Position numbers and translations under genes: made by a program
Shown: positions 8,597-31,795 of the stretch, one piece after another
How the letters are laid out: every line of letters begins with the position of its first letter
Position numbering within the stretch: the first letter of the stretch is position 1
The notes under the pieces: generated by a model
The model's input: the letters and a program-made list of their open reading frames with translations, nothing else
What the model was told of the DNA's origin: nothing
Database searches by the model: none
Origin: an uncultured Gammaproteobacteria bacterium
GTDB lineage: Bacteria > Patescibacteriota > Microgenomatia > 0-14-0-10-38-17
Assembly: GCA_964348895.1 (NCBI GenBank)
Contig: CAYGEH010000001.1
Location: 110,593-174,592 of the forward strand
Length of the DNA stretch: 64,000 bases
Direction of reading: 5' to 3'

Positions 8597-8630
8597 TAAA
8601 TAAACCCAAATAAAATAAACGCTGGGGTTG
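8597..8630. repeat. 34-bp perfect direct repeat, copy 1 (taaataaacccaaataaaataaacgctggggttg)
   Basis: Identical 34-mer recurs at 9021..9054. The two copies flank the GIY-YIG gene. Confidence 0.85.
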
Positions 8631-13187: not shown

Positions 13188-13190
13188 TTT

Positions 13191-14315: not shown

Positions 14316-14591
14316 TTTATTGGGCTTATTGCCCCATTCTTTTCGATTTAATTCTTGAAAACTAAAAACTCTCTAAACTCTTCCTGTGACAGAACCCCTA
14401 AAACAAATCAACAAGCTAAAAGGTGAAAAGACCAAGTAAAGTCTGCTCTTTGAACAACCTTTGACATTTTGATAAAGCAATGAAATTGTGGCAATACAAG
14501 TTGGGGTAAATTTTAACAGACCTATTTTTTGTTTTTGCTCGACTGTCATATTTGACAAGCATTTCTTTTTTTGCTACAGTTAGTTTAACCT

Positions 14592-14628
14592 GCTCCGCAT
14601 ACATGTATGCGGAGCCTTTTTTTTATTT
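14592..14628 (+). terminator. perfect-palindrome hairpin plus T-tract (intrinsic terminator geometry on the + strand)
   Basis: gctccgcatacATGtatgcggagc is an 11-bp perfect stem, followed by ctttttttttattt. A TTGACA-17-TACAGT promoter-like element lies ~40 nt upstream on the same strand. Confidence 0.5.
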
Positions 14629-15213
14629 AACTTGGGTTACTAGGTTATTTTGGCTAATTTTTAAGACTTTCGGTCGCCTTTTTATGCTTCTTAGTTTCAA
14701 CTTTCTCCCAGTAAAATTAAGCAGAAAAACGGGAAAACCAATCAGCGATCTAAACATAAATTTGTTTTCCAAACAAAGTACAGAAACTTTCTTCTTCAAT
14801 CTTTTTGCCGCTTCTAGAGCCTGAATAAAATCAGCGTCACCAGAAAATAAATAAAGATTCTCATACCTGCCCAGGTGGGCAAGGTCCACAATATCTACTG
14901 CCATTTTAACATCAACTTCTTTTTCTTTCCCGCTACTTTGAGATCGATAGCCTTTAAAAAAAATCGTTTTAGCTGTTTTTTTAACCCCTCGATAAAATAG
15001 GGCTTCGTTTTTCAAATAAAGCTTTTCTTTCTTGGTTAACTTCTTTTCTTTCGGCGAATATGAAGCATAGAAATAAATCTGGTCAAATTTTACCCCTACC
15101 CTTTCTTCAGTTTCGTTTATAAATTTTGAAAAATCTAAATATTTGTCTGGCCCAAAAAGTTCATATTGAGCAGCGTATAAATTAGTCCCATCAACAAAGA
15201 GGTAGGTTTTCAT
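14623..15213 (-). CDS. NYN domain (LabA-like PIN-fold) protein
   Basis: N-terminal YLFVDGTNLY and FSGDADF match NYN/LabA conserved acidic motifs. Confidence 0.7.
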   Translation of the reverse strand: MKTYLFVDGTNLYAAQYELFGPDKYLDFSKFINETEERVGVKFDQIYFYASYSPKEKKLTKKEKLYLKNEALFYRGVKKTAKTIFFKGYRSQSSGKEKEVDVKMAVDIVDLAHLGRYENLYLFSGDADFIQALEAAKRLKKKVSVLCLENKFMFRSLIGFPVFLLNFTGRKLKLRSIKRRPKVLKISQNNLVTQVK

Positions 15214-16703: not shown

Positions 16704-16807
16704 TTTATTCCTTAATACTTTATCATATAAAAAAACATTTAGAGGCTCGCTCCTCCTTGTTCTTGGGTCCAGGAAGTGTTTTTGAATCGAAAAAAAGAAG
16801 AAACCGC

Positions 16808-17857
16808 CTAGAGCTTATCTTGGCCAAATTTACTTTGAAAATCTTGCTTGCCTAAACCGTAAAGAAACATTACCCCATAAAAAAGATGACTAACAAAAAT
16901 TGTTGGAAAAAACAAAAGGGCGGAGAGGGGGTTTTTACTTTGTTTTAAAACCCAAAAACTACTAGCTAAAAGCAAAGCCCCATATATTCCTAAAATAAAA
17001 AGATAAATCGTTAACAAAACTCTTGCCAAAACCAGAAAACCCATTATTTGTAGAAGAATTATTAAAATTGGAGATAAAATCACTCCAAAAGCAAAAAGCA
17101 TTGGCATAAAGTAGCCTAGTCTTTGCGAGGTTTTAGGTAAAATTTTGACAAAATGGCCTCGATGCTTGCCATAGCGACCAATTTGTTTTAAATGGGGAAG
17201 GAAGATGTTGCGGCGGTGGTGATAGACCAAAACTTGAGGATCATAAATAATTTTTTTTCCTTGCCTGTGGACCAAGTCGTGACAAAACTTAGTGTCCTCT
17301 CCTGGCCAAAATCGAGCATCAAAACCGCCTGTTTTTAAAAAATCTTTTTTCTTTACCAAAAGATTAAAAGTGGGGTAATCGTCAACCTCACGCCTTGGTC
17401 TGGGCCAGCAGCGATATTGACCTGCTCCGCCAGAGCCAAGAAACGAAGCCCACATCCAACCAGAAACTTGAGCCAAAAGCGGATCGCTTGGTGGTGTTAC
17501 CCCTGGTCCACAAACAGCAGAAAGGGTTTGAAGTTCAAATATAGACAAAGCTTTTTCTAGCCAATTTTTTTCAGGATAAGCATCATCATCAAGAAAGGCC
17601 AAAATTTCTCCTTTTGCTTGATCAACGCCAAGGTTTCTTTTGTCTGCTGGCCCCACTTTTGGCCAAGTGGGAATAATTTTCGTTTTGGCAAACTTTTCTT
17701 TAGAATCGTGGTCAGGTAAGATAATTATTTCAAAGTTTTGATAAGTTTGTTTTAAGATTGCTGGAATTGTTTCTTTGCGAAGATAATTGTTAATTTCCTT
17801 AACTGGAATAATAATAGAAAAGAAAATTTTTGCCATATTTTTCTTGCTATCCCTCAT
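16808..17857 (-). CDS. glycosyltransferase family 2 protein with C-terminal membrane domain
   Basis: SIIIPVKE...DDD core followed by 4 TM helices. Overlaps the next gene by 11 bp. Confidence 0.7.
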   Translation of the reverse strand: MRDSKKNMAKIFFSIIIPVKEINNYLRKETIPAILKQTYQNFEIIILPDHDSKEKFAKTKIIPTWPKVGPADKRNLGVDQAKGEILAFLDDDAYPEKNWLEKALSIFELQTLSAVCGPGVTPPSDPLLAQVSGWMWASFLGSGGAGQYRCWPRPRREVDDYPTFNLLVKKKDFLKTGGFDARFWPGEDTKFCHDLVHRQGKKIIYDPQVLVYHHRRNIFLPHLKQIGRYGKHRGHFVKILPKTSQRLGYFMPMLFAFGVILSPILIILLQIMGFLVLARVLLTIYLFILGIYGALLLASSFWVLKQSKNPLSALLFFPTIFVSHLFYGVMFLYGLGKQDFQSKFGQDKL

Positions 17858-18638
17858 TAACCCTAAAGTTTAGCTCCTTGTCAAAATGCCATTTTCTTTT
17901 ATTTTTATCACTATAATAGCCTAAAATTTTAAGGCGATAAAAAATTGCCAAGGTGTCTAGGGCCATTTCAAAAACATTCTTAAACCTTATCGTGCTGCTA
18001 AATTTAAACTTTTGTGGATCAATTCTTATTGGAGCTTCATAAATTCGACTAAAACCAAGGTGATGAGCAACGGCAAGCAATTCAACATCAAAGGCAAATC
18101 TTTTCACTAGTAATCTTGGTAAGACTTTTTCCAGGACTTTTCTTTTAAATATTTTTAAACCCCCTTGAGTGTCTTTTAGTTTTAAACCAAGCAAAACACG
18201 AACCAGAAAACGATAACCCAAACTGTAAACTTTTCTTAAAAAAGGATATTCTACTTGAGAGGCGGGGTGTCTTTTGGAACCAACAATAATGTCGGCTTCA
18301 TACCACTCCATATGTTCCAAAACCATTGAAATTCCGTTAGGGTCAATATCCATACCTGCGTCAATGAAGGCAATAAAACTACCCCTAGTTCTGACCATTC
18401 CATATCTGACGGCATAGCCCTTGCCCTTATTAGTTTTATAGCCAAAAACTTTTATTTTTGGCGATTTAACTTTCTTGGCTTCTTGGAGGGTTCTGTCGCT
18501 TCCGCCATCAACAACACAAATAATTTCATAATCATAGCGGATTTTTGCCAAAACACCGCTAATTCTTTTAAGGTCTTTGGTAATTGTTTTTTCCTGTTTA
18601 TAAGCAGGAACAATCACCGAAAGAAAATTAGGGTTCAT
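17847..18638 (-). CDS. polyprenol-phosphate glycosyltransferase (Dpm1/GtrB-like GT2)
   Basis: LSVIVPAYKQE...VVDGGSDRT...GKGYAVRYG, with a C-terminal amphipathic segment. Confidence 0.75.
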   Translation of the reverse strand: MNPNFLSVIVPAYKQEKTITKDLKRISGVLAKIRYDYEIICVVDGGSDRTLQEAKKVKSPKIKVFGYKTNKGKGYAVRYGMVRTRGSFIAFIDAGMDIDPNGISMVLEHMEWYEADIIVGSKRHPASQVEYPFLRKVYSLGYRFLVRVLLGLKLKDTQGGLKIFKRKVLEKVLPRLLVKRFAFDVELLAVAHHLGFSRIYEAPIRIDPQKFKFSSTIRFKNVFEMALDTLAIFYRLKILGYYSDKNKRKWHFDKELNFRVNEG

Positions 18639-19906
18639 AGTTGGCTTAGTTTAAATCTAATGTTTTTCAGATAAAAAAGCAAAAGGCCAATTAGCAATAA
18701 AGAAAGAGTTAAGATGTTTGCTTTAACGATTTCTTCAACGCTACCGCGATTAAAATAAATTAAAACTACTTGGACGATAGCAAATAAAACTGATAAAAAA
18801 ATCGCCTTGGTTTGAAAAATTGATAGATAAAAGTTTAAGAATAACGAGCAAATGGCGTAAAGGGTTAGAAAAATAGCAAAGAGCCACAAGCTTGAGGCCG
18901 CCCCCAAATAAGCTGGACCAAAAAGAAGATTAACCATTAATTCGGGCAAATAAAAATAAATAACGCCTATGCCTAAAGAAATCAGCAGTATCAGCAAAAA
19001 GCTTAACCAAAAAATTTTTTGACAACTTTCTCCTTTTTGATGCTTTTGGGAAACTAAGGGAAACATCACTGAAATAATCGGACTGGAAGCAAAAAAAATA
19101 ATTTTCCCCAAAACCGAGAGGGCCGCATAATATCCTGCCTGAACAGGGGGCAGAAAATGTCTGGCTAAAATTATATCCACCGTAAAAAACGAAATTAAAG
19201 AAAGATTAGTAAAAAGAACCGCTATTGAATATTTTCCCATATTGCCAAAATAATTTTTGGGGACAGCTACCCCTTGCTTAAATATTGCTATGTATTTCTT
19301 TATCCTGCCTAACCCAAAGGCCCCGACCAATAAAGACGACAAAACCAAACCCATCACCGCTCCCCCCACCCTAAAGCCAAGATAAACTAGCAAAACCGAA
19401 ATAAAAAGTTTTAACCAAGAAGAAAAAATATTAAAAACAGCCAATTCCTTGAATTTCATTATTCCCTGAAGGGAGGAAGAAAAAAGAGCTACAAAAACGC
19501 CCAGATAAGCCGATAAACCTAAACCAAAAAAAAGCCAAAAGGATTCGATTCTTAAAAAATTTCTAAAAAGAGGAAAAAGGAGAAGAAAAAAGATGAACGC
19601 GAGCAAACCCCAGTAAAAAGCTTTGTTAAAAAACTTGGTTACAAACTGGCCAATCTTTTCTGAACTTCTTTCTCCAGAAATATATTTAACTATTACCACG
19701 TTAAAAACCATCATTGGAAGACCAAGATAATAAAGAATTGAAATGAGGCTTTGAAGAATACTATAGTCGGCTGGTCCAAGCAGTCTGCCCAGGGCCAAGT
19801 GGTAAAGATAGGCGCCTAAATTGGCCACCACAGATCCGCTAAGAACTATCAGGCTTCCGTTAAAAAATAAGTTATTTAAAAAAAGAGCTTGAAGTTTTGT
19901 TTTCAT
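18635..19906 (-). CDS. polysaccharide/oligosaccharide flippase (MOP/Wzx-like) membrane protein
   Basis: 423 aa with ~12 predicted TM helices. It lies at the head of the glycosylation operon. Confidence 0.55.
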   Translation of the reverse strand: MKTKLQALFLNNLFFNGSLIVLSGSVVANLGAYLYHLALGRLLGPADYSILQSLISILYYLGLPMMVFNVVIVKYISGERSSEKIGQFVTKFFNKAFYWGLLAFIFFLLLFPLFRNFLRIESFWLFFGLGLSAYLGVFVALFSSSLQGIMKFKELAVFNIFSSWLKLFISVLLVYLGFRVGGAVMGLVLSSLLVGAFGLGRIKKYIAIFKQGVAVPKNYFGNMGKYSIAVLFTNLSLISFFTVDIILARHFLPPVQAGYYAALSVLGKIIFFASSPIISVMFPLVSQKHQKGESCQKIFWLSFLLILLISLGIGVIYFYLPELMVNLLFGPAYLGAASSLWLFAIFLTLYAICSLFLNFYLSIFQTKAIFLSVLFAIVQVVLIYFNRGSVEEIVKANILTLSLLLIGLLLFYLKNIRFKLSQL

Positions 19907-20471: not shown

Positions 20472-20873
20472 ATGGAAAAAAAGTGTGTTTTCTGTCAAAT
20501 TGCCAAAGGTAAAATACCCGCCCAGGTTATTTATGAAAATAAACAACTCCTTGCTTTCTTGGATAACCAACCCGAAGCCTCTGGTCATATTTTAATTATT
20601 CCTAAAGAACACTTTGCTACTCTTTTAGATGTCCCCGCAGATATTCTCACCAACCTTGTTCGAGTTTTACAAAAAATTGCCCAAAACATTGCTAATCAAT
20701 TACATCCCGACGGCTTTAATGTTTACCAAAACAGCGGCTCTTTCGCTGGACAAACCATCAATCATCTTCATTTTCATCTCATCCCTCGCTATCGCCAAGA
20801 TCCCTCAATCGACAAAAAAAATTTTCCTTTAATCGTTAAAACATTAAGAAAAGAAATAATAAGCTATGACTAA
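20472..20873 (+). CDS. HIT family (histidine triad) nucleotide hydrolase
   Basis: CVFC at the N-terminus and the canonical HLHFHLIPR histidine triad. Confidence 0.85.
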   Translation: MEKKCVFCQIAKGKIPAQVIYENKQLLAFLDNQPEASGHILIIPKEHFATLLDVPADILTNLVRVLQKIAQNIANQLHPDGFNVYQNSGSFAGQTINHLHFHLIPRYRQDPSIDKKNFPLIVKTLRKEIISYD

Positions 20874-22995
20874 ACAAGAACTTTCGTTTCTAGAAATTAA
20901 GATCCCCAAAAACAATCTTTACACCACGGAGCAAACAGAGGCTTTATTGGTCAATTTAACTAAATCGAAAAATGGTGGACTATTTTCCTCTCCTCAAACC
21001 GCTCTAAGTTTAAACATTATTTCCCAAGAACAAAGAGTTCACTTCTTTTTCGGTCTTCCCCAAGAAAAAACCAACTTCATTCAAAGTCAAATTTTGGCCC
21101 AATATCCCGACTCGCTAATAACTGTTGGCAAAAACCCTCTTCTCTCTTTACCTGAACTAAGAAAAGCTTGTTTTTGTCAATTAGTTTTGGCTAACGCTTA
21201 TTACTATCCCCTAAAAACCGCCGCTGATTTTACTGACACTAACCCCCTATCTTCAATTTTGGCTACCCTCTCCAAAATTAAACAACCCAAATCTTGGGCT
21301 GTTTATCAGTTAATTATTACTGGCAAAACAACAAGCGCTGCCAAAAAGATTAATAATAAAATTTTGGTTGGGGTTAAAAATGAAGACGGCAACTATCGCT
21401 CTCACCCCGATCAGTCTTTGTTTGAGAAAAAAATTAGCAAAGATTTACTTGTGACAACCATTAATCTTCTTGCTTCTGATAAAACTATTCTTGGCGAGCT
21501 TGCCGGCAGCTTTGGCTCTTTTACAAGCCCCGGTAGCAACAATTTAACCATTAAAAATCCGACCTTTTTAAATAAAAATAAAATCTATCAATCAATTATT
21601 AATCATCAGTCAAGCCAAAAAACCATTCTTAATCTTGCCGAAGCGGCTACCCTTTGGCATTTGCCAAACGAAAAGGTCACTTTGCCCAATATCGCTTGGG
21701 GAAGAACAATCACCACTGAATCTCCTAGTGATCTCCCTGTTGTCCAAAATCTTAGCGAAGAAGAGAAAAAAGATGTTTGTTTTTTTGCTCGAACTGAATA
21801 TAAAAATCAAATGGTTAATTTTGGCATTAAAAAAGCCGATCGCCGACTTCACTTTTATGCTATCGGTAAAACTGGCACCGGCAAATCAACCTTAATCGCC
21901 AATATGGCCATTTCTGATATTAGACGAGGACAGGGGGTTGCCGTAATTGATCCCCACGGAGACCTAATTGAAACTCTTCTAAACTATATTCCTTCAAATA
22001 GAATTAATGATGTTTGCTACTTTAATCCAGCCGATAAGGAATACACTTATCCTTTAAACCCCCTAGAAGTAACCAATAAAGAACAAAAAGAACTAGTTGC
22101 CTCTTCTATTTTAGCTATTTTCTTTAAACTCTATAGCTATTCTTGGGGTCCAAGACTGGAACACATTTTTCGCAACGCCCTTCTTACTCTGGTTGAAGTT
22201 CCCGATGTAACCCTGGTTAATGTCATTGACATTTTAACTAAAGAGGGCTACCGAAATAGCATCATCAAAACCCTAAACAATCCCTCTTTGGTTTCTTTCT
22301 GGCAAAATGAATACGGAAAAATGCCTGATCGGCTTCAACAAGAAGCCATTTCGCCAATTCTTAACAAAGTTGGTCAATTTATTTCCTCTCCTTCAATTAG
22401 AGAAATTATTGGCTGGCCTCGTTCTCGGGTTAATTTAGAAGAAATTATGAACGAAGGAAAAATTTTGTTGGCCGATCTCTCTGCGGGAAAACTTGGCGAA
22501 GATAACTCCGCTCTTTTAGGAGCAATGTTGATCACTCAAATTCAATTAGCGGCTATGAATAGGGTTAATGTCCCTGAAGAATCCCGCCGAGATTTTTATT
22601 TATTTGTTGATGAGTTTCAAAATTTTGCCACCACTTCTTTTATTAAAATTCTTTCCGAAGCGAGAAAGTATCGCCTTGCCTTAACTTTATCTAATCAATA
22701 TATGGCTCAACTTGATGAAAAAATTCAAAGTGCTATTTTTGGCAACATTGGCTCCCTGACTTCGTTTATTGTTGGCAATCAAGACGCTCAAGTTTTGGCC
22801 CGAGAAGTCGCCGACGACTATAATGAAAAAGATTTAATTTCCCTCGACCGTTTTCAAATTTTAACCAAGTTGGCAATTAACGGTCGAACCTCAAAGCCCT
22901 TTCTGGCCTACACTCTTCCTTTGCCTAATTGCATAAACCAAGGCAAAAATAAAGTTATTAACGCTTCTCGTCAACGCTTCGGTAAAAAAAGATAG
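20866..22995 (+). CDS. VirD4/TraD-like type IV secretion DNA-binding domain ATPase (coupling-protein family)
   Basis: Walker A YAIGKTGTGKST, Walker B LFVDEFQNF, ~700 aa. 8-bp overlap with the HIT gene. Confidence 0.6.
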   Translation: MTKQELSFLEIKIPKNNLYTTEQTEALLVNLTKSKNGGLFSSPQTALSLNIISQEQRVHFFFGLPQEKTNFIQSQILAQYPDSLITVGKNPLLSLPELRKACFCQLVLANAYYYPLKTAADFTDTNPLSSILATLSKIKQPKSWAVYQLIITGKTTSAAKKINNKILVGVKNEDGNYRSHPDQSLFEKKISKDLLVTTINLLASDKTILGELAGSFGSFTSPGSNNLTIKNPTFLNKNKIYQSIINHQSSQKTILNLAEAATLWHLPNEKVTLPNIAWGRTITTESPSDLPVVQNLSEEEKKDVCFFARTEYKNQMVNFGIKKADRRLHFYAIGKTGTGKSTLIANMAISDIRRGQGVAVIDPHGDLIETLLNYIPSNRINDVCYFNPADKEYTYPLNPLEVTNKEQKELVASSILAIFFKLYSYSWGPRLEHIFRNALLTLVEVPDVTLVNVIDILTKEGYRNSIIKTLNNPSLVSFWQNEYGKMPDRLQQEAISPILNKVGQFISSPSIREIIGWPRSRVNLEEIMNEGKILLADLSAGKLGEDNSALLGAMLITQIQLAAMNRVNVPEESRRDFYLFVDEFQNFATTSFIKILSEARKYRLALTLSNQYMAQLDEKIQSAIFGNIGSLTSFIVGNQDAQVLAREVADDYNEKDLISLDRFQILTKLAINGRTSKPFLAYTLPLPNCINQGKNKVINASRQRFGKKR

Positions 22996-23048: not shown

Positions 23049-24584
23049 ATGTTATTTCTTAAAAAACAACTTTTTCCAATTAGTTTAAATTTAAACTTAA
23101 AGCTTCGCCCTGGCTGGAAGAAAGCTGGCTTGTTAATCCTATATTTCTTTCCATTAATCATGCTCGCTTTTTTGTTAATCAGACCTAATCTTCCCAAAAT
23201 GAATTGGCAGATGGCCTTTGAAAGATCAGCCAATTACTCTCCTCAAAATTATCAGCAAAACAAGGAGAGCCAGTTGCCTTGGCTCTCAACTTCGGGGCGA
23301 TTTATTGTTGACGAAGAAGGAAGACCTGTTATTTTGCGAGGAGTTAATGTTGCCAGCATTTCTTGGGGATATAAGGATTGGTTTCCAAAAGCCGTTGAGG
23401 TCGCAGCCAAAGACTGGGGGGTTAACGTCATTCGAGCCAGGGTTTATCAGGATAAATATTTCGAAAACCCAGAAGAGTTCTTTCAAATAATGGAAGAAAC
23501 TATTATTGGTCCAGCCAGAAAGCTTAATCTTTACATCATTCTTAATCCTTGGATTGGTGAAAATGAACCTCTGCCTAATGAACAAACCTTTATCTTCTGG
23601 CAAGAAATTGCTCGTCGCTATCAAAACGACCCGGCCATCATTTATGATGTTCTGGCTGAACCATATGATGTTAGTCGCGTCCAGGTTTGGGAGGCTAATA
23701 AAAAATTAATTGAAGCTATTCGTCAAGTTCATCCTAAAAGTTTGATTATGGTCACTGGGGTTGGTTGGGGAAGAGAAATTAACTCTTATCTTAATAACCC
23801 CCTACCTTATAAAAATATTGTTTATCGAACTAACCCCTACAATAAGACTGGTGAATTTGAAGCCATTTTTGGTCGAATTGCTCGCTTTTATCCAGTCTTT
23901 ATTGGCGAATTTGGAGCTGATGGTTTCCCTCCGATGACCCGAGAGTCGGTTGAAGAATTACTGTTGTTGGCCAACAAGCTTTCTTTGGGCTGGACAGCCT
24001 GGAACTTTCACTCTGTGGGTTGTCCCTGCTTGTTAACAGATCGTCAGTCTTATCAGCCTTCGGCTTATGGTCAGATTGTTAAAAACGCCCTGGGAGTGCC
24101 CTTAGCAGTCAATCAAAACAACCTAGAAATAAACTATAGTGCCGACAAAAAATTAATTATTTACTCCGACCACCTAGAAAATAATTTTCGCGATCTTTCC
24201 TGGGATGCTACAATCGATTTAGTCAATCAAGAACAAGCTTTTTCTGGTCAAAAATCAATTAAAACAGAAATTAATAAGGGTTGGGGGGCGCTTTATCTTT
24301 CTTCCTATCTTCCAATTGAAACGGAAAACCTTTCTTGGTTTAAATTTAAAATTAAAACTAATCAATTAAATCTTTATCGGACTAATTTAATAACAAACAA
24401 CAACAGCAGTTCTAATGAAGTAGCTCTTCTTCCTTGGTCTAAACATATTTCTGAAAATTGGTATCAAGTTGCAATTCCTCTTACCAACCTTATTAATAAA
24501 AACGAAAAAATTATCGGCCTTAACATAAAAGATTCTTCTGGTTCTCCTTCGCTTTTTTGGGTTGATGATATTTATCTAGAATAA
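23049..24584 (+). CDS. glycoside hydrolase family 5 protein with N-terminal membrane anchor and C-terminal accessory domain
   Basis: N-terminal TM helix, then a GH5-like (beta/alpha)8 region: RGVNV...NVIRARV, YDVLAEPYD (NEP-type acid/base) and FIGEFGADG (nucleophile Glu). Confidence 0.7.
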   Translation: MLFLKKQLFPISLNLNLKLRPGWKKAGLLILYFFPLIMLAFLLIRPNLPKMNWQMAFERSANYSPQNYQQNKESQLPWLSTSGRFIVDEEGRPVILRGVNVASISWGYKDWFPKAVEVAAKDWGVNVIRARVYQDKYFENPEEFFQIMEETIIGPARKLNLYIILNPWIGENEPLPNEQTFIFWQEIARRYQNDPAIIYDVLAEPYDVSRVQVWEANKKLIEAIRQVHPKSLIMVTGVGWGREINSYLNNPLPYKNIVYRTNPYNKTGEFEAIFGRIARFYPVFIGEFGADGFPPMTRESVEELLLLANKLSLGWTAWNFHSVGCPCLLTDRQSYQPSAYGQIVKNALGVPLAVNQNNLEINYSADKKLIIYSDHLENNFRDLSWDATIDLVNQEQAFSGQKSIKTEINKGWGALYLSSYLPIETENLSWFKFKIKTNQLNLYRTNLITNNNSSSNEVALLPWSKHISENWYQVAIPLTNLINKNEKIIGLNIKDSSGSPSLFWVDDIYLE

Positions 24585-24824: not shown

Positions 24825-25511
24825 ATGAGAAAGAGAGAGAAAGAGAACAGCGGGTTCGATCCGGCTCCATTGCCGTGGTACTGGAAAAGGGTGTTGTTGG
24901 TGTTCCTCCTCGTTCTTGCGGCCGCCGCAACGGTACTAGGACTTGTTCTGGTACGCCCGTGGACACAAGGAGGGAGAAACAAAGCAGGGCTCATTGCCAC
25001 CACGACAACTGTCCATCCCGAGGCGGTCGTCGCGCAAACGACTCCAACGGTTGTTGTCTTGATGAAGACAGCGACTCCCGAGGCGGCCGTCGCCGTGCCG
25101 CAGACAGTAGTCTGCAGTGTACAGGTTCGACTCGACGAGGAGGACCCGTACTGGAGTAACGCTTCGGCGCTACTCCTTGTTGAAGGCTGGTGTGCTCTTG
25201 TAGAACGAGACCAGGCTTGGCAACAGGTCAGGGACGAAGAAGCTCTTCGAAAAACCTGGAAAGAAGGGGCCACAGAAGATTATCTTCTTTTGTGCAACCC
25301 TGGACCAGGGTCGAGGCTGTTCAACTTACAGGACTCCTTTGGAGGCCGGCCACCAGACTGGTGGAATGACCAGGCAAAGGCTGTTTTGCTCTTCCGCCTC
25401 CCTGGTGTGACTACCAGCGATGATCTAGTCATCGCCGTGTTGTACGAACACGACGATGACCAACTCGAAGAAGGATGGGAATTCCCCATTCTTCTCCCTC
25501 ACCAGAACTAG
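24825..25511 (+). CDS. hypothetical membrane-anchored Ala/Val/Thr-rich protein encoded in a GC-rich (~58% GC) segment
   Basis: 228-aa ORF with N-terminal TM helix WKRVLLVFLLVLAAAATVLGLVLV and very high GC3. An AGGAGA RBS sits 6 nt upstream. All other ORFs overlapping it are GC-driven artefacts. Confidence 0.5.
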   Translation: MRKREKENSGFDPAPLPWYWKRVLLVFLLVLAAAATVLGLVLVRPWTQGGRNKAGLIATTTTVHPEAVVAQTTPTVVVLMKTATPEAAVAVPQTVVCSVQVRLDEEDPYWSNASALLLVEGWCALVERDQAWQQVRDEEALRKTWKEGATEDYLLLCNPGPGSRLFNLQDSFGGRPPDWWNDQAKAVLLFRLPGVTTSDDLVIAVLYEHDDDQLEEGWEFPILLPHQN

Positions 25512-25545: not shown

Positions 25546-25665
25546 AAGGGGGATTAAGCGGGAAGCAATGAGCTTTCTGACAAAAGATTCATCACTTATG
25601 TGATGTTCTTTTTCAGAAGCTTATGCTTCTCGCTCCCCCGTCCGCCCTTAATTTTTAAACAAAAA

Positions 25666-26991
25666 ATGAAAAAGTTTATTGTGGTTATCTTAATTAGTTT
25701 TGTTCTGATTATTTCTTTTTTGCTGGTTAATTTTTATGGCTTTCTTTCTGGGTTCCTGTTCTTGGTGACCATTTTCCTGCTTTGTCAGGGCTCCTTTGCC
25801 ACTTACTCTATACTTTCCTCTTGGTTAAATCCAGAAAGTTTAAAAAAAATTTCTCCGCCAAAAGATTTCTCCCAAAATCGGCTATTCTTCTCCTTGATTA
25901 TTCCGGTTAGAAACGAGGAAAAAGTCATTGCCCAAACCTTGGCGGCAATGAAAAAAATTAACTACCCTCGCGATAAATATGAAATTATAATTACCGCTCG
26001 CGACGATGACACTAAAACTGTGGGAAAAATTTTGGAATCACTAAGCCACCTTCCTCCCACCTTTAATTTATTAGTTTGGGAAAACTTTCCCAATTCTAAG
26101 CCTCAAGGCTTAAACGCCGCCCTAAAATATACTCAAGGAGAAATTGTTGGCATCTTTGATGCTGAAGATGAACCTCATCCAGACATTTTAAACGCCGTTA
26201 ACACCACTTTTATAAACAAGAAGGTCGACATTGTTCAATCGGGAGTTCAGTTGGTTAATGTTGACTCTTATTGGTATTCTCCTCATAATTGTCTAGAATA
26301 CTATTTTTGGTTTAAATCGGTCTTGCCCTTTTTCTCCTCTTGGGGCGCTAACCCACTTGGGGGGAATACTGTTTTTTTTAAAAAAGCTATTGTTGGGGCT
26401 GCTGCTGGTTGGGATGAAGACTGTTTAACAGAGGACGCTGAGATTGGTGTTCGATTGTCGTCTTTGGGTAAAAAAACTGCCGTTATTTATGATGAAGAAA
26501 TAGCCACTAAAGAAGAAACTCCTCCTAGCTTGGGCGGCTTCATTCGCCAGCGAACTCGCTGGCATCAGGGGTTTTTTCAGGTTCTTTTAAAGGGAAACTG
26601 GAAAGATTTGAAAAATAATCGCCAAAAGGGAATTATTCTTTATCAAATGACTTATCCTTTTATGCAAATTTTTAATTCTTGCTGGCTTTTGATCACCCCC
26701 TTCTTGGCTTTTTTTACTAAAATTCCCCTAGGAATAGCTCTTTTTTCTTATCTCCCTGCTTATTTTTTCTTGATTCAATTGGGGGTTTCCTTAATCGGTC
26801 TTTATGAATTAAACAAAAACTATCAACTTAAGTTTTCACCTCTAGTTTATTTTAAGTTTTTGGTTTTCTTTTTTCCATATCAATTCGTTATTTCTTTGGC
26901 CACCCTAAGAGCAATCAAGAGGCAGTTGGCGGGATTAAATTTTTGGGAAAAAACTGAACACATTAACGCTCACCGAAAAGCTTTTTCTTAA
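25666..26991 (+). CDS. processive family-2 glycosyltransferase (cellulose/chitin-synthase-like, QxxRW class), integral membrane
   Basis: SLIIPVRNEE...DDD, DAED (DXD) and QRTRWHQG (QxxRW), with N- and C-terminal TM helices. MKKFIVV at 25666 is taken as the start; the ORF opens at 25600. Confidence 0.7.
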   Translation: MKKFIVVILISFVLIISFLLVNFYGFLSGFLFLVTIFLLCQGSFATYSILSSWLNPESLKKISPPKDFSQNRLFFSLIIPVRNEEKVIAQTLAAMKKINYPRDKYEIIITARDDDTKTVGKILESLSHLPPTFNLLVWENFPNSKPQGLNAALKYTQGEIVGIFDAEDEPHPDILNAVNTTFINKKVDIVQSGVQLVNVDSYWYSPHNCLEYYFWFKSVLPFFSSWGANPLGGNTVFFKKAIVGAAAGWDEDCLTEDAEIGVRLSSLGKKTAVIYDEEIATKEETPPSLGGFIRQRTRWHQGFFQVLLKGNWKDLKNNRQKGIILYQMTYPFMQIFNSCWLLITPFLAFFTKIPLGIALFSYLPAYFFLIQLGVSLIGLYELNKNYQLKFSPLVYFKFLVFFFPYQFVISLATLRAIKRQLAGLNFWEKTEHINAHRKAFS

Positions 26992-26998
26992 AAAGAAT

Positions 26999-29422
26999 AT
27001 GAAACTTTTCACTTTAGTTAAAAATTTACTTAAAAAGAAAAATTTTCTCCCCGTGCTTCTGGGGTTAGTTTCTGTCTTGTCTCGCTTAATTAATCTTTTT
27101 GGCTATCCAGAGTTTTTGGGCGACGAAGGAATTTATGCCTCTCAAGGCTGGTGGTTAATTAACTTTGGTCAAATTTCCCCCTATACTTACTGGTATGATC
27201 ATTCGCCTTTCGGTTGGCTTCAAATCGGTCTTTGGCAAAAGTTAACTGGAGGGCCGTTTACTTTTGGCTTTTCTGTTAATTCGGGCAGGATTTTTATGGC
27301 AATACTCGCTGGGGTTTCAGTTTTCTTGTTTTTTAAAATCGTTTTAAAAATTACTAAAAGTAAGCCAATCTCTCTTTTCTCTAGTCTAGTTTTTATTTTT
27401 TCCCCCTTAGCGGTTGCTTATCAAAGATTGCTTCTTTTAGACAATTTAGCTGTTTTTTATTTTTTAATCAGCCTCTATTTTATTTTGATCGCAAAGAAAA
27501 GACTGCTCTTTTTTTTACTTTCTGGCCTGGCCGCTGGACTAGCCTTTTTATCAAAAGAAACTAGCCTTTTGCTTGTTCCTGGTCTTTTTATTTTAGTTTT
27601 TAAAAAATCGCTTGGCCCAACTCAACCCTTTTTGATTTTAATCTGGCTTGTCTCTTTAGGTTTTACTGCTCTTTTTTTTCCGCTTTTAGCTTTTCTAAAA
27701 TTAGAGCTTTTGCCTGCATCTTGGCTGCCTGGGCAAAGACAGCATGTTTCTCTTATAGAGGGAATCTTGTTCCAAGCTGGCCGAACGGGAGGCAATCTTT
27801 TCAGTCCAGAAAGCGACATTAGGCGGGCAATTGTTGGCTGGCTAGAAATTGACAGAGTTTTACCTGCTCTGGGTTTATGGTCAATGCTTATTTTAGTAAT
27901 CAACTTAAAAAATAGTCTTTCTATTTCCTTTTTAATTATGAACCTATTCTTCGCCTGGTATCTTTTGCGAGGCGGAGTAGTTTTGGGATTTTATCTTATT
28001 CCCCAAATTGCTCTTTGGTGTTTAAGCTTGGCCTTGGCAATCAAGTTGATTAACAATAAACTCCAATACCGACTTTCAGCAAAAAAAATCACATTTGTTA
28101 TTGGAATAGCCGTTTTGCTTTTAATTGCCCAAAGCCCACAAGTTTATTTAATCAATAAGAATCAAGCTCATCTTAATAGTCTTAACTTTCTAAGAAATAA
28201 TATTAATCCTGAAGCCGTTCTGGTTACTGACCCACTCTTTTACCTTGATCTAAAAATTAACTCTAAATATCCTACCTTTAGTCGAGTTGAGTGGTTCTCT
28301 AAGGTAGAAATGGACCCACAAATAAGAGAAGGAAAGCTTGAAAATCGATGGCAAAAGATAGATTACTTGTTAACCACGCCAGGAATGATGGGGGAAATAG
28401 AAAAAAACGACTATCAGTTTATTAGCCAAGCAATAAGCCGAGGCTTAATCTTAAGGAGTTTTGGTGAAAACGACTTTGAGACCAACATTCTTTATCAGAT
28501 TCCGGAATCAGAAAAACTTTCTGGCTTTGGAAGAATAGTTTATGAACAAAATCAAAATAAAAATTATTTAGAAAAAATAAAGAAATTAATTATTTCTCTT
28601 GGAACAGATTTTGGTGGACAATTGATTTTGAACCCTAATCAGATTAGCCCTGCCAGTAAAATAACCACTTTTGTTGACCAAGAAGGAGGGTTAGTTAATC
28701 GTTTTCGAGAGTCACCCAACATTGCCCAAAGTCAAATTAAAGACAGAAATGAGGCTTTTCGTTTGGCTAAGGTCCGAGGAATTATGTTAAAAAGAAACGG
28801 TATTGATGTTAATTTGGCGCCTGTTTTAGATATTGGCCATTTACAAAACAGTTATATTGTCAGAGAAAGAAGATCCTTTTCTAGTAACCCTGAGCAAGTC
28901 ATTAGCTTTGGCGAGGCAATGATTAATGGCTATCGCCAGGTCGGAATTAAAACAATTATTAAGCATTTTCCCGGCGGCCTAGGCCGCACTAGCCTTGATC
29001 CTCATTATCAGCTTCCTCAAATTAATCTCAGCCAAAGCGACCTAGAAGAAGACATTGTTCCTTTTAAAAAGCTAATTGGTTTGGCTGATGGAGTTATGGT
29101 CACCCACCTTGACTATCCTCAAATCGACCCCAATTTGCCTTCCAGTTTGTCCCCAATTTTTATAAACGCCCTGCTAAGGCAAAAACTAAACTATCAGGGA
29201 CCGATAATTATTGATGACTTAAATATGAAAGCTATTAGTCAAGAATATTCTCAAGCTCAGGCGATTGCCTTGGGGTTAAGAGCTGGGGCCGATCTCTTTA
29301 TTATTACCCAACCAGAAAAAAATCTTCTTGAAGACCTGATGATATTAATCGAGTCTGGGGAAATTAGTCCTGGTCTAATTGATCAAGCCCTAGAAAGAAG
29401 CAAGGAGCTGTTAAACCATTAA
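26999..29422 (+). CDS. fusion protein: N-terminal GT39/ArnT-like polytopic membrane domain plus C-terminal glycoside hydrolase family 3 (NagZ-like) domain
   Basis: ~480 aa of TM helices with ArnT-like N-terminal features. The C-terminus has KHFPGGLGRTSLDPHYQ (GH3 KHFPGHG..D.H motif) and IIIDDLNMKAIS (GH3 nucleophile-Asp region). Confidence 0.6.
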   Translation: MKLFTLVKNLLKKKNFLPVLLGLVSVLSRLINLFGYPEFLGDEGIYASQGWWLINFGQISPYTYWYDHSPFGWLQIGLWQKLTGGPFTFGFSVNSGRIFMAILAGVSVFLFFKIVLKITKSKPISLFSSLVFIFSPLAVAYQRLLLLDNLAVFYFLISLYFILIAKKRLLFFLLSGLAAGLAFLSKETSLLLVPGLFILVFKKSLGPTQPFLILIWLVSLGFTALFFPLLAFLKLELLPASWLPGQRQHVSLIEGILFQAGRTGGNLFSPESDIRRAIVGWLEIDRVLPALGLWSMLILVINLKNSLSISFLIMNLFFAWYLLRGGVVLGFYLIPQIALWCLSLALAIKLINNKLQYRLSAKKITFVIGIAVLLLIAQSPQVYLINKNQAHLNSLNFLRNNINPEAVLVTDPLFYLDLKINSKYPTFSRVEWFSKVEMDPQIREGKLENRWQKIDYLLTTPGMMGEIEKNDYQFISQAISRGLILRSFGENDFETNILYQIPESEKLSGFGRIVYEQNQNKNYLEKIKKLIISLGTDFGGQLILNPNQISPASKITTFVDQEGGLVNRFRESPNIAQSQIKDRNEAFRLAKVRGIMLKRNGIDVNLAPVLDIGHLQNSYIVRERRSFSSNPEQVISFGEAMINGYRQVGIKTIIKHFPGGLGRTSLDPHYQLPQINLSQSDLEEDIVPFKKLIGLADGVMVTHLDYPQIDPNLPSSLSPIFINALLRQKLNYQGPIIIDDLNMKAISQEYSQAQAIALGLRAGADLFIITQPEKNLLEDLMILIESGEISPGLIDQALERSKELLNH

Positions 29423-30541: not shown

Positions 30542-30711
30542 TCTTTCCCGAGCCAGTCTATTTGTTCTTATCTGCGGTCTTCTTAAAACTTCTATATCTC
30601 AAAACAATTGAAATAATAATATTGACGGGTGACTCTTTTTATTTTTTTTCAAAAAGTCTAAAGAGAAACTGCTAAAAAAATTAGCAAAAAACACTTTGTT
30701 TGTAACTTTTG

Positions 30712-30793
30712 TCCAGGGGATAGGATTCGAACCTATGAAGGGAAACCCGCCAGTTTTACAGACTGGTGCGATTGGCCACTCCGCCACCCCTGG
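30712..30793 (-). tRNA. tRNA-Tyr (anticodon GTA), long variable arm
   Basis: Reverse complement folds as acceptor CCAGGGG/CCCCTGG, D arm GCGG-AGTGGCCAA-TCGC, anticodon arm CCAGT-CT GTA AA-ACTGG, 13-nt variable arm and T arm ATAGG-TTCGAAT-CCTAT. Discriminator is A. Confidence 0.75.
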
Positions 30794-30886: not shown

Positions 30887-31795
30887 ATGAAAGTTGTCAA
30901 TTGGATTAAAAACAATAAATTGTCTTCTGTTCTATTGTTGGGAATAGTAATTCTTTATTTAACCGCCCAGGTGGGTTTTTTTGCCCCTCGCTATCAATAT
31001 GGTGATTATAGTGCTTCTGGGGAAGATTTTGGCTTTTCTGTTGGTTCTGTGAAGCCAGAGATGGGCCGTTCTCTTCCTAGTATTCTGCCTATTCCAGACC
31101 AAGGAATTCCCCCTTCGGACAGCCCTCTTCGAATGGTAGTTGCCCAAACAGATTTATCTTTGGTGGTTAACGATGTTAGACAGGCGGCAGATGCTATTGC
31201 CCAAAAAACAGAAACAATTGGTGGTTTTATGGTTTCTCGCTCTCTTAGTCAGCCCGAAGAGGCTCCATATGGCTACATCAGTCTTAGGGTGCCAGCCGAG
31301 AAAGCTGAAGAGGCTATAGGTCATTTCAGGGGGTTGGCAATCAAGGTGGTTTCTGAAAATGTTAGTGCTGATGACGTTACTGATCAATATGAAGATATTG
31401 ACAAAAAATTAACCACTCTAGAGCAAACTAAACTAAGACTAGAAGAAATTATGGATCAAGCAACTGAGATTAACGATATTTTGTCGGCCCAAAGAGAAAT
31501 TATTAATCTTCAAAATCAAATTGACAGCCTAATTGGAAGACAGGAGTATTTAGAAAAAACCGCTCAATTCTCTCTAATAACCATTCATCTTTCTACCGAC
31601 GAATTAGCCCTACCCTATCAACCAACAGAAACCTTTAGACCCTTAGTAATTTTCAGACAAGCGTTAAGATCAATGATCTTAACTATGAGGGATTTTGCTG
31701 GGGCTTTAATTTGGCTGGGTGTCTATGGAGCAATCTGGATACCGGTGATTTTGGCATTTATCATTTTCAAATATTTTTACAAAAAGAAAAAGTAA
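30887..31795 (+). CDS. DUF4349-like membrane-anchored coiled-coil protein
   Basis: N-terminal TM, an ISLRVPAEKAEEA segment, a coiled-coil region (DKKLTTLEQTKLRLEEIMDQATEINDILSAQREIINLQNQIDSL), LITIHLSTDE and a C-terminal TM plus KKKK tail. This matches the DUF4349 architecture. Confidence 0.55.
   Translation: MKVVNWIKNNKLSSVLLLGIVILYLTAQVGFFAPRYQYGDYSASGEDFGFSVGSVKPEMGRSLPSILPIPDQGIPPSDSPLRMVVAQTDLSLVVNDVRQAADAIAQKTETIGGFMVSRSLSQPEEAPYGYISLRVPAEKAEEAIGHFRGLAIKVVSENVSADDVTDQYEDIDKKLTTLEQTKLRLEEIMDQATEINDILSAQREIINLQNQIDSLIGRQEYLEKTAQFSLITIHLSTDELALPYQPTETFRPLVIFRQALRSMILTMRDFAGALIWLGVYGAIWIPVILAFIIFKYFYKKKK

What the first reader, a model, noticed from the sequence alone, without database searches (positions are those of the whole stretch)
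26999..29422. Fusion of an ArnT/GT39-like polytopic membrane domain with a NagZ-like GH3 hydrolase domain
An 807-aa protein has ~480 aa of ArnT-like TM region, then KHFPGGLGRTSLDPH and DDLNM motifs of family-3 beta-N-acetylglucosaminidases. NagZ is normally cytoplasmic and recycles peptidoglycan. Tethering it to a lipid-linked-sugar transferase-like membrane domain is an unusual architecture. It suggests extracytoplasmic trimming of a GlcNAc-containing glycan.
Basis: partly seen in the sequence, partly recalled or inferred. Interest (0 to 1): 0.5.

Follow-up and report, generated by a model that had tools for sequence, protein, structure and literature searches.

The report
Membrane glycosyltransferase–GH3 fusion beside glycan synthase
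A real, conserved fusion of a lipid-sugar-using membrane glycosyltransferase with an outward-facing sugar-trimming enzyme, encoded directly after a cellulose-synthase-like gene; this synthase/GT-C gene pairing is widespread in Patescibacteria and Chloroflexota and I found no description of it.

Summary
Window 26999..29422 (+) is one uninterrupted 807-aa ORF. It has 11 TM helices of GT-C fold (residues 1-385), a small outside domain (386-505), a linker helix, and a NagZ-type GH3 domain (530-807) with an intact catalytic set (K655/H656, D667/H669, D739). Topology places the GH3 domain outside the cell.

Extracytoplasmic NagZ-type enzymes are already known (YbbD, LpqI). The real context is a conserved operon: GH5 endoglucanase, anchored hypothetical, BcsA/HAS-like GT2 synthase, GT-C, GH3. 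In relatives the GT-C and GH3 are adjacent separate genes, in one case overlapping by 26 nt, so the window protein is a fusion of two neighbouring operon genes.

The wider pattern is this. 434 species-level genomes, mostly Patescibacteria and Chloroflexota, encode this GT-C module. In 72 of 84 cases a synthase-type GT2 gene lies directly upstream. The GT-C is more often fused to a BcsZ-like GH8 (50) than to GH3 (7).

Most likely the protein is the outer-face processing subunit of a synthase-dependent β-glycan pathway. The glycan's identity (Glc or GlcNAc) and the GT-C reaction remain unknown. I found no literature on this pairing.

The parts
23049..24584 (+). GH5 endoglucanase-like gene (511 aa) with an N-terminal membrane anchor and a C-terminal extra domain. 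First gene of the conserved module.
   Evidence: Pfam Cellulase PF00150, E 5e-29. The closest solved relatives are GH5 endo-beta-1,4-glucanases 6gjf, 2cks and 3pzt. A hydrophobic N-terminal segment is present. A GH5 gene is present upstream in every GH3-type locus that has enough upstream sequence.
24825..25511 (+). Anchored hypothetical protein (228 aa): TM helix, T/A/V/P-rich linker, and a C-terminal domain with motif WWNDQAK...YEHD...GWEF. It is a fast-evolving fourth component of the operon.
   Evidence: No Pfam hit. A gene in the same position occurs in L001, L003, L005, L007, L090 and L091 and shares a weak WND..K/F-E-x-D..W motif (BLASTP against L001, E 0.001).
25666..26991 (+). BcsA/HAS-type membrane-integrated GT2 synthase (441 aa from ATG 25666; the ORF opens at GTG 25600). 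Motifs DAEDE (165), TED (255) and QRTRW (295). No PilZ domain.
   Evidence: Pfam Glyco_tranf_2_3 at 2.6e-34. The best PDB sequence hit is BcsA 4hg6/4p00 at E 1e-14. The AF2 model has pLDDT 91.4, and the best Foldseek hits are BcsA and hyaluronan synthases. The database gene model is 441 aa.
26999..28153 (+). GT-C transmembrane domain of the fusion protein (residues 1-385, 11 TM helices, N terminus in the cytoplasm).
27122..27127 (+). D42-E43, the acidic pair in the first outside loop (GDEGIY). This is the expected GT-C catalytic motif.
   Evidence: Invariant in 37 GT-C homologues and at least 90% conserved in 150 representatives. Also conserved are Y64, Y66, D67, H68, W73, R97, R143, D148, N149, K186 and E187.
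28154..28513 (+). Small alpha/beta domain on the outside (residues 386-505), also present in stand-alone homologues. Carries invariant D439 (motif W.K.E.DP.IR).
   Evidence: AF2 secondary structure. Stand-alone homologues of about 515-550 aa end after this domain. D439 is invariant.
28514..28585 (+). Linker (residues 506-529), mainly one long helix. It has the lowest-confidence stretch of the model.
   Evidence: AF2 helix 509-529; the pLDDT block around residues 511-520 is 64.
28586..29422 (+). NagZ-type GH3 catalytic domain (residues 530-807) plus the stop codon. It is a compact barrel lacking two helical segments that more distant fusions and free homologues have before DQEGG.
28961..29005 (+). 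KHFPGGLGRTSLDPH (residues 655-669): K655/H656 for substrate binding and the D667/H669 acid/base dyad.
   Evidence: These residues align to YbbD K221/H222 and D232/H234. The clade-specific one-residue insertion and DPH are shared by fused and unfused operon-linked GH3s.
29213..29215 (+). D739, the predicted catalytic nucleophile (IIIDDLNM).
   Evidence: Aligns to YbbD D318, the residue mutated in PDB entries 4gyj and 3lk6. Conserved across the family.

Best explanation
The 807-aa protein is a bifunctional subunit, embedded in the membrane and acting on its outer face, of a synthase-dependent cell-surface beta-glycan pathway.

Proposed sequence of events. The upstream BcsA/HAS-type GT2 (25666..26991) polymerises a beta-linked glycan from a nucleotide sugar and threads it through its own membrane channel. 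The GT-C domain is encoded 7 nt downstream and probably sits beside the synthase. It uses a polyprenyl-phosphate-linked donor at its outside active site (D42/E43). With that donor it either adds sugars to the emerging polymer or attaches the polymer to a surface acceptor.

The GH3 domain is tethered just outside the membrane and removes terminal beta-linked residues (GlcNAc or Glc) from non-reducing ends. BcsA-type synthases push the reducing end out first, so those ends must come from chains cut by the membrane-anchored GH5 endoglucanase (23049..24584) or from side branches. GH5 and GH3 together would play the chain-cutting and clean-up role that BcsZ (GH8) and BglX (GH3) play in cellulose systems, and that a fused GH8 plays in sister operons.

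Shown here: one ORF; both folds; catalytic residues present; GH3 outside; the operon and its conservation; the fusion arose from adjacent genes.

Inferred: physical association with the synthase; the lipid-linked donor; the nature of the polymer; the division of labour among the hydrolases.
For: The ORF is continuous and the architecture recurs in independent assemblies.

Topology: 11 TM helices, a K-rich N terminus, and all short K/R-rich loops on one side. Unfused GH3 homologues have signal-anchor helices.

GT2: QRTRW, TED and DAEDE motifs. BcsA is the best sequence match. BcsA and HAS are the best structural matches, with no GtrB/DPMS-type enzyme in the top 50.

Operon: GH5, hypothetical, GT2, GT-C, GH3 are conserved with different flanks. 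GT2 is directly upstream of 72 of 84 GT-C genes in 80 species-level loci, with a median gap of 9.5 nt.

Hydrolase swap: 50 GT-C-GH8, 7 GT-C-GH3 and 27 GT-C alone. The GH8 is closest to CelA, BcsZ and CMCax and the GH5 to endo-1,4-glucanases.

Precedents: a synthase bound to a polytopic modifying enzyme in the BcsA-BcsG complexes 9fmz and 9b8v, which appear in the hit list. A GH5 replacing GH8 in a monoderm cellulose operon, CcsZ (PMC7710045).
Against: There is no biochemical evidence for any step. The polymer is unknown. NagZ-type GH3 points to GlcNAc, whereas GH5, GH8 and the BcsA-like synthase point to beta-1,4-glucan. No interaction between the GT2 and the GT-C was modelled or measured. No dedicated polyprenyl-phosphate-sugar synthase or GtrA-type flippase was identified in the operon, so the source of the GT-C donor is unexplained. 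Many Chloroflexota loci have GT2 plus GT-C with no hydrolase within 9 kb, so hydrolases are accessory. The inter-domain arrangement in the model is only moderately confident (pTM 0.73).
Confidence: 0.55

Rival explanations
1. Gtr/Arn-type multi-component glycosylation. The upstream GT2 only makes a polyprenyl-phosphate (or other lipid) monosaccharide. This is flipped, and the GT-C domain uses it to glycosylate a protein or wall polymer. The GH3 trims that decoration or is functionally unrelated.
For: GT2-then-GT-C gene pairs are the hallmark of such systems (ArnC/ArnT, GtrB/GtrC, CsbB/YfhO; background in PMC13390465). The tight coupling, with a median gap of 9.5 nt, fits a donor-maker/donor-user pair. 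PcManGT (6yv7), a membrane mannosyltransferase that I recall being described as having a minimal cellulose-synthase-like fold, is also among the GT2 hits.
Against: The GT2 has the processive-synthase signature (TED, QRTRW) and 6 TM helices. It matches BcsA and HAS best, with no GtrB/DPMS-type hit in the top 50. The system is regularly accompanied by endo-acting GH5 or BcsZ-like GH8 enzymes, which make sense only for a polymer. No GtrA-like small flippase gene lies in the operon.
Confidence: 0.15
2. The GH3 domain is simply an extracellular YbbD/LpqI-like muropeptide N-acetylglucosaminidase, serving peptidoglycan turnover, GlcNAc scavenging or local wall remodelling. It is tethered to the membrane by fusion to a neighbouring protein, with no action on the synthase product.
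For: The nearest solved relatives are NagZ-type enzymes, including the extracytoplasmic YbbD and LpqI. The Asp-His dyad typical of NagZ is present. Patescibacteria are generally regarded as having reduced genomes and relying on scavenging (general knowledge). LysM/M23 wall hydrolase genes lie a few kb downstream in L005, L090 and L091.
Against: The GH3 gene is always the gene directly after the GT-C in this clade, or is fused to it, and fused and unfused forms interleave in the tree. In the sister clade a BcsZ-like GH8, which is not a peptidoglycan enzyme, occupies the same position. The clade has a distinctive altered motif and falls below the NagZ equivalog cutoff.
Confidence: 0.15
3. The GT-C domain is a catalytically inert scaffold, a functional stand-in for BcsB/CcsB that guides the polymer. 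Only the hydrolase domain is enzymatic.
For: It occupies the operon position and topology (membrane-anchored, mostly outside) of BcsB/CcsB-type partners (PMC7710045). No donor-synthesis gene was found in the operon.
Against: The acidic pair D42/E43 and a set of polar residues in outside loops and in the membrane (Y64, Y66, D67, H68, R97, R143, D148, N149, K186, E187, D439) are invariant or nearly so across two phyla at about 30% overall identity. That pattern is typical of an active site, not a scaffold.
Confidence: 0.1
4. Artefact: two genes joined by a sequencing or assembly error, or a pseudo-fusion.
For: In relatives such as L090 the two genes are separate and overlap by 26 nt, so a single indel could join them.
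Against: The same fusion, at 805-809 aa, occurs in more than 15 independent clusters at 51-77% identity and in more distant ones at 850-890 aa. An identical protein is on 6 contigs. The linker is a confidently modelled helix. The junction region is conserved.
Confidence: 0.01

Closest known systems
NagZ-type GH3 beta-N-acetylglucosaminidases, especially the extracytoplasmic B. subtilis YbbD (NagZ) and M. tuberculosis LpqI
   Different: Tethered by fusion to an 11-TM GT-C enzyme rather than by a lipid anchor. Single-domain, lacking YbbD's C-terminal domain. Two helical segments before DQEGG are missing in the window's subclade. The motif is KHFPG-G-LGRxxxDPH, with a one-residue insertion and Pro in place of Ser/Thr. 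It scores below the NCBIfam NagZ cutoff. It is encoded in a synthase operon, not a muropeptide-recycling operon.
GT-C(A) glycosyltransferases that use polyprenyl-phosphate sugars: PMT (GT39), ArnT (GT83), ALG mannosyltransferases, AglB/PglB
   Different: Only 10-16% identity to any solved member, and no PDB hit by sequence. The obligate gene partner is a BcsA/HAS-type synthase rather than a GtrB/ArnC/DPM1-type donor synthase. It is frequently fused to a glycoside hydrolase. The acceptor and donor are unknown.
Bacterial cellulose synthase operons: BcsA-BcsB-BcsZ (plus BglX in Komagataeibacter, plus BcsG in E. coli) and the clostridial CcsZAB system
   Same: A membrane-integrated processive GT2 with TED and QxxRW motifs. 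A co-encoded membrane partner facing outward. A cognate endoglucanase (GH8 BcsZ or GH5 CcsZ, the latter membrane-anchored). As I recall, a GH3 exo-glycosidase sits next to the Komagataeibacter operon. BcsG gives a precedent for a polytopic enzyme that modifies the nascent chain using a lipid donor.
   Different: No PilZ/c-di-GMP module, no BcsB or CcsB, and no outer-membrane component. The partner is a GT-C enzyme. The GH3 is NagZ-type, not BglX-type. The product has not been shown to be cellulose.
Three-component transmembrane glycosylation systems (GtrA/GtrB/GtrC, ArnC/ArnT, CsbB/YfhO, GacI/GacL)
   Same: A GT2 gene directly followed by a GT-C gene. The GT-C acts on the outer face with a lipid-linked donor.
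   Different: The GT2 here has the synthase fold, with a channel-type TM bundle and QRTRW, instead of the GtrB fold with a C-terminal hairpin. There is no GtrA-type flippase gene. Endo-glycanases are co-encoded.

Membership tests
GH3, NagZ-type subfamily | GH3 N-terminal (beta/alpha)8 catalytic domain | tested here: met
GH3, NagZ-type subfamily | Catalytic nucleophile Asp equivalent to YbbD D318 | tested here: met
   D739 aligns to YbbD D318 and is conserved in the family.
GH3, NagZ-type subfamily | Asp-His acid/base dyad equivalent to YbbD D232/H234 | tested here: met
   D667/H669 align to D232/H234.
GH3, NagZ-type subfamily | Strict signature KH[FI]PG[HL]GxxxxD[ST]H (as I recall it from the literature) | tested here: not met
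   The sequence is KHFPG-G-LGRTSL-DPH. It has one extra residue after KHFPG, and Pro replaces Ser/Thr. This is shared by all operon-linked GH3s, fused or not.
GH3, NagZ-type subfamily | NCBIfam NagZ equivalog score (PRK05337) | tested here: not met
   140 bits against a cutoff of 207.
GH3, NagZ-type subfamily | beta-N-acetylglucosaminidase activity, as opposed to beta-glucosidase or phosphorylase activity | not testable with these tools
GT-C glycosyltransferases (PMT_2 / GT39-GT83-like) | Pfam PMT_2 or PMT match above the gathering score | tested here: met
   PMT_2 at 43.3 bits against 26.1; PMT at 24.5 against 22.7.
GT-C glycosyltransferases (PMT_2 / GT39-GT83-like) | GT-C fold of the TM domain | tested here: met
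GT-C glycosyltransferases (PMT_2 / GT39-GT83-like) | Conserved acidic residue(s) in the first extracytoplasmic loop | tested here: met
   D42-E43 lie directly after TM1 and are invariant in A3 and at least 90% conserved in A2. Equivalence to the PMT DE motif is by position, not by a residue-level structural alignment.
GT-C glycosyltransferases (PMT_2 / GT39-GT83-like) | Uses a polyprenyl-phosphate-linked sugar donor | not testable with these tools
   Inferred from the fold only. No donor synthase was identified in the operon.
ArnT proper (GT83, lipid A L-Ara4N transferase) | Arn operon context (ArnC etc.) and a lipid A acceptor | tested here: not met
   The neighbours are GH5, a BcsA-like GT2 and ribosomal genes. 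No arn genes are among the window proteins scanned. By sequence there is no PDB hit to ArnT.
Bcs/Ccs-type synthase-dependent beta-glucan systems | Membrane-integrated processive GT2 with D, DxD, TED and QxxRW motifs and a TM channel | tested here: met
   DAEDE 165, TED 255 and QRTRW 295. BcsA is the best hit by sequence and by fold, alongside HAS.
Bcs/Ccs-type synthase-dependent beta-glucan systems | Cognate endoglucanase encoded with the synthase | tested here: met
   A GH5 endoglucanase-like gene lies upstream in the window and in all complete GH3-type loci. A BcsZ-like GH8 is fused in sister loci.
Bcs/Ccs-type synthase-dependent beta-glucan systems | PilZ c-di-GMP receptor on the synthase | tested here: not met
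   The GT2 is 441 aa and ends after the last TM helices. It has no PilZ Pfam hit.
Bcs/Ccs-type synthase-dependent beta-glucan systems | BcsB (or CcsB) partner | tested here: not met
   The gene after the GT2 is the GT-C protein. No BcsB-family hit appears among the operon proteins.
Bcs/Ccs-type synthase-dependent beta-glucan systems | The product is beta-1,4-glucan | not testable with these tools
   There are only indirect hints from the GH5 and GH8 affinities.
Gtr/Arn-type three-component glycosylation | GtrB/ArnC/DPM1-type GT2 (soluble GT-A domain plus a C-terminal TM hairpin) | tested here: not met
   The GT2 has 2 N-terminal and 4 C-terminal TM helices and matches BcsA and HAS. No GtrB or DPMS appears in the top 50.
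Gtr/Arn-type three-component glycosylation | GtrA-type small flippase encoded alongside | tested here: not met
   The only other small protein in the operon is single-pass and has no Pfam hit. The rest of the genome was not searched.

The most novel reading that the evidence does not exclude
GT-C enzymes may be obligate co-subunits of BcsA/HAS-type processive synthases in Patescibacteria and Chloroflexota, defining an undescribed hybrid route of surface-glycan assembly. One version: the synthase builds and exports a lipid-primed polymer, and the GT-C transfers it en bloc to a protein, lipid or wall acceptor, as an oligosaccharyltransferase or ligase would. Another version: the GT-C branches the chain as it emerges. 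In either version the fused GH3 or GH8 domain edits the product on the spot.
Probability: 0.2. Interest if true: 0.8.

Novelty: new variant of a known kind. Interest (0 to 1): 0.57.

Why it matters
Patescibacteria (CPR) and many Chloroflexota are largely uncultured, and their cell envelopes are poorly understood. This operon is present in at least 434 species-level genomes. It links two glycan-assembly logics usually treated as separate: a synthase that polymerises and exports, and a GT-C enzyme that works outside with lipid-linked sugars.

If the two proteins work as a complex, that would be a new accessory subunit type for synthase-dependent polysaccharide secretion. It may also be how these episymbionts build the surface glycan they use for attachment or protection.

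The repeated fusion to hydrolases (GH3, GH8) gives an experimentally tractable handle. The soluble GH domains can be expressed and used to identify the polymer.

Tried and rejected
1. A sequence search of the GT-C part (residues 1-507) against PDB found nothing at E <= 1. Only fold comparison placed it.

2. Six literature searches found no description of a GT2-synthase/GT-C pairing or of the GT-C-GH3/GH8 fusions. The terms covered CPR/Microgenomates with cellulose synthase, GT-C with cellulose synthase-like and fusion, CcsZ/CcsA/CcsB, Patescibacteria with ArnT and peptidoglycan, Saccharibacteria with GH8, and GT-C with synthase-dependent and Chloroflexi. Only background came out of them (PMC7710045, PMC13390465). 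The library lacks most subscription journals, so absence is not proof.

I replaced it with local clustering of the extra domains plus spot checks.

4. I tested whether the 440-aa N-terminal extension of P0022 is a fused GT2, which would have been a triple fusion. It is not; it is another polytopic membrane region.

5. The promoter/terminator scan of 22800-30900 was uninformative (24 promoter-like sites against 14.2 expected, 11 terminator-like against 9.7, none clearly placed).

6. One mis-framed query was corrected.

7. The idea that a NagZ outside the cell is itself the novelty was rejected because YbbD and LpqI are extracytoplasmic.

8. The artefact hypothesis was rejected.

Full report
**1. 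Observation**

Window 26999..29422 (+) is a single ORF of 807 codons with no internal stop.
- Pfam finds PMT_2 (residues 89-230, 43.3 bits against a cutoff of 26.1), PMT (64-233) and Glyco_hydro_3 (558-800, 167 bits, E 8.9e-49).
- An identical protein is on record on six contigs, the longest 691 kb. About 30 further 90%-identity clusters at 77% down to 30% identity have the same PMT_2 + GH3 architecture. Several are named Candidatus Shapirobacteria. A frameshift or assembly artefact is therefore excluded.
- The window has about 37% G+C and carries a ribosomal-protein cluster just downstream. Syntenic contigs are from Shapirobacteria and Patescibacteria MAGs.

**2. Anatomy of the protein**

Hydropathy and charge distribution give 11 TM helices: 15-35, 96-116, 122-141, 143-165, 169-185, 188-203, 211-233, 285-304, 306-324, 326-352 and 364-384. 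The N terminus is lysine-rich and all short K/R-rich loops lie on the same side, so the N terminus is inside and everything after residue 385 is outside.

An AlphaFold2 model built on an 83-sequence alignment is confident (mean pLDDT 93.8, pTM 0.73). It shows the same helices, a small alpha/beta domain at 386-505, a long linker helix at 509-529 and a compact barrel to the C terminus.

- By sequence alone the membrane part has no solved relative.

The TM region is thus about 385 aa, not about 480.

**3. Are the active sites intact?**

GH3. In the HMMER alignment to full-length B. subtilis YbbD, K221/H222, D232/H234 and D318 align to K655/H656, D667/H669 and D739. D318 is the residue mutated in PDB entries 4gyj and 3lk6. 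That it is the nucleophile, and that D232/H234 form the acid/base dyad, is from my knowledge of the YbbD literature. DQEGG (560-564) and the RRSF arginine (624-625) are also present.

There are two deviations.
- The motif has one extra residue and a proline (KHFPG-G-LGRxxxDPH). All GH3s linked to this operon share this feature, fused or not. Ordinary NagZ homologues lack it.
- The window's own subclade (P0001-P0016) lacks two helical segments between the first strand and DQEGG. More distant fusions (P0017-P0030) retain them. Even so, the domain models at pLDDT above 90.
- The protein scores 140 bits against the NCBIfam NagZ equivalog, whose cutoff is 207.

GT-C. The first outside loop is the most conserved part of the family. 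D42-E43 (GDEGIY), Y64, Y66, D67, H68, W73, R97, R143, D148, N149, K186, E187, S251, W281 and D439 are invariant or at least 90% conserved. This holds across 37 and across 150 homologues that share only about 30% overall identity. That pattern argues for a working active site.

**4. Context: the fusion is the tail of a conserved operon**

The genes upstream on the same strand are as follows.
- A GH5 gene (23049..24584) with an N-terminal anchor. Its nearest solved relatives are GH5 endo-beta-1,4-glucanases.
- A 228-aa anchored hypothetical (24825..25511).
- A GT2 (ORF from 25600, probable start at 25666, 441 aa) that ends 7 nt before the fusion gene.

The GT2 has DAEDE, TED and QRTRW motifs. 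Its best PDB sequence hit is BcsA (E 1e-14). A confident model (pLDDT 91.4) matches BcsA and hyaluronan synthases best, with TM-score normalised to the query of about 0.6-0.66. No GtrB/DPMS-type enzyme is in the top 50. It has no PilZ domain.

The same gene order recurs with different flanking genes at 58%, 37% and 33% identity of the fusion protein (L002, L001, L003).

In Beckwithbacteria and other Patescibacteria the operon is GH5, hypothetical, GT2, GT-C (515-534 aa), then GH3 (387-398 aa) as a separate gene. In L090 the two genes overlap by 26 nt. Those free GH3s start with a basic stretch and a single hydrophobic helix, so they too are tethered outside.

On an NJ tree of the GT-C region alone, fused and unfused forms interleave within one GH3-type clade (no support values). 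The window protein is therefore a fusion of two adjacent operon genes, and such fusion or fission probably happened more than once.

**5. The wider family**

- An exhaustive HMMER search of 1.84 billion representatives gives 637 hits at E <= 1e-30. Among the 150 best, 64 carry a C-terminal GH8 domain, 13 carry GH3 and about 55 are stand-alone.
- A scan of one genome per GTDB species finds 434 genomes with a relative. The 80 best are from many Patescibacteria classes and from Chloroflexota.
- In those 80 loci, 72 of 84 GT-C genes have a synthase-type GT2 directly upstream on the same strand. The median gap is 9.5 nt, and 47 have a gap of 20 nt or less or overlap. Three sit at contig edges. Most of the remaining nine are tandem second copies or have the GT2 nearby.
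- The architectures are 50 GT-C-GH8, 27 GT-C alone and 7 GT-C-GH3.
- The GH8 domain is closest to C. thermocellum CelA and to the cellulose-synthase-associated BcsZ and CMCax endoglucanases.
- GH5 accompanies the GH3-type loci and only rarely the GH8-type loci. GH5 plus GH3 thus appears to stand in for GH8.

**6. Mechanism**

Shown:
- There is one polypeptide with two folds, and both catalytic sets are conserved.
- The GH3 domain is outside the cell.
- The gene is obligately coupled to a BcsA/HAS-type synthase gene.
- The accompanying hydrolases are interchangeable.

Inferred: the GT2 polymerises and exports a beta-linked glycan. The GT-C domain acts at the outer face with a polyprenyl-phosphate-linked donor, as all structurally related enzymes do. 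It either decorates the emerging chain or attaches it to an acceptor. Precedent for a polytopic, lipid-donor-using modifier bound to a synthase exists in the BcsA-BcsG complexes (PDB 9fmz, 9b8v, listed). The GH3 domain removes terminal beta-linked residues.

GH3 enzymes attack non-reducing ends, and BcsA-type synthases extrude the reducing end first (established knowledge from the BcsA translocation-intermediate structures). The GH3 can therefore only act on fragments released by the GH5 endoglucanase or on side branches.

Synthase operons typically encode a hydrolase for their own polymer: BcsZ, CcsZ (PMC7710045), and from my own knowledge PssZ and PslG. As I recall, Komagataeibacter additionally has a GH3 BglX next to its bcs operon.

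**7. Rivals**

- (a) A Gtr/Arn-type system in which the GT2 only makes a lipid-linked monosaccharide. This is disfavoured by the GT2 fold and motifs and by the endo-glycanases.
- (b) The GH3 is a YbbD/LpqI-like muropeptide enzyme unrelated to the synthase product. This is disfavoured by its fixed position after or fused to the GT-C, and by its replacement with GH8 in the sister clade.
- (c) The GT-C is an inert BcsB-like scaffold. This is disfavoured by the invariant polar residues.
- (d) Artefact. This is excluded.

**8. Comparison and novelty**

- The GH3 domain works like a NagZ-type enzyme. It meets the fold and catalytic-residue criteria but fails the strict signature and the equivalog cutoff. 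I file it as a divergent NagZ-like clade.
- The membrane domain is a GT-C(A) enzyme of the PMT_2 type. It is not ArnT proper.
- The operon resembles Bcs/Ccs systems (synthase plus endoglucanase). It lacks PilZ and BcsB, and a GT-C sits in the partner position.
- I found no paper describing this pairing. The searchable library is incomplete, so the system may be described elsewhere.

**9. Verdict**

The finding is real. The premise (NagZ is cytoplasmic) and the substrate (GlcNAc) are not secure. The more interesting fact is the conserved synthase/GT-C pairing, of which this fusion is one variant.

Scores: novelty, new variant of a known kind; interest 0.57.

Noticed in passing
window 24825..25511 (+): A 228-aa anchored hypothetical lies between GH5 and GT2, in a local G+C-rich patch (0.43 against about 0.37) that also produces overlapping spurious ORFs on both strands. 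Related operons hold an anchored protein at the same position, sharing only a weak WND..K / F-E-x-D..W motif that is sometimes duplicated. It may be a fast-evolving glycan-binding component.
   Followed up: partly
window 25600..25665: The mechanical ORF for the GT2 starts at GTG 25600 (463 aa). The identical database protein is 441 aa, implying a start at ATG 25666 (MKKFIVV...).
   Followed up: partly
window 6569..19906 (-): A second, separate glycan cluster lies on the minus strand. It contains a Wzx-type flippase (18635..19906), two GT2s, a B12-binding radical SAM enzyme, a NYN-domain protein, a GT4, a methyltransferase, a 1169-aa protein with no Pfam hit (8947..12456) and another PMT_2-type GT-C (6569..8191).
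   Followed up: no
window 20866..22995 (+); also L002 2607..4745 and L009 7641..10214: A TrwB/TraG-like coupling-protein ATPase gene sits just upstream of the GH5 gene. It recurs next to the operon in L002 and lies near it, on the opposite strand, in L009.
   Followed up: no
proteins P0334, P0364, P0397; GT2 genes of about 700-740 aa in L024, L026, L029, L030, L038-L040 and others: Many GT2 partners in GH8-type loci are about 250-300 aa longer than the window's GT2. A few carry a 2-oxoacid dehydrogenase acyltransferase domain (PF00198), which hints at polymer acylation.
   Followed up: no
L047 6356..11664; L066, L069, L077: Tandem duplicates of the GT-C (or GT-C-GH8) gene sit behind a single GT2 gene in some Patescibacteria and Chloroflexota genomes.
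   Followed up: no
P0022 (1297 aa), P0039 (865 aa), P0236/P0258: Other architectures of the same GT-C module exist: an extra N-terminal polytopic membrane region ahead of GT-C-GH3; a C-terminal nucleoside 2-deoxyribosyltransferase-like domain; and a C-terminal DUF5719 domain.
   Followed up: partly
loci L013, L014, L017, L018, L022, L024 and others: Several MAG records carrying this Patescibacteria/Chloroflexota-type operon are titled 'uncultured Gammaproteobacteria' or 'Pseudomonadales'. Some are 1.0-1.6 Mb contigs. These are probably mislabelled taxonomy rather than true proteobacterial occurrences.
   Followed up: no
window 30711..30793 (-) and 117..191 (+): tRNA-Tyr (gta) lies between the operon's downstream region and the DUF4349 gene (30887..31795). 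tRNA-Pro (ggg) is at the window start.
   Followed up: no
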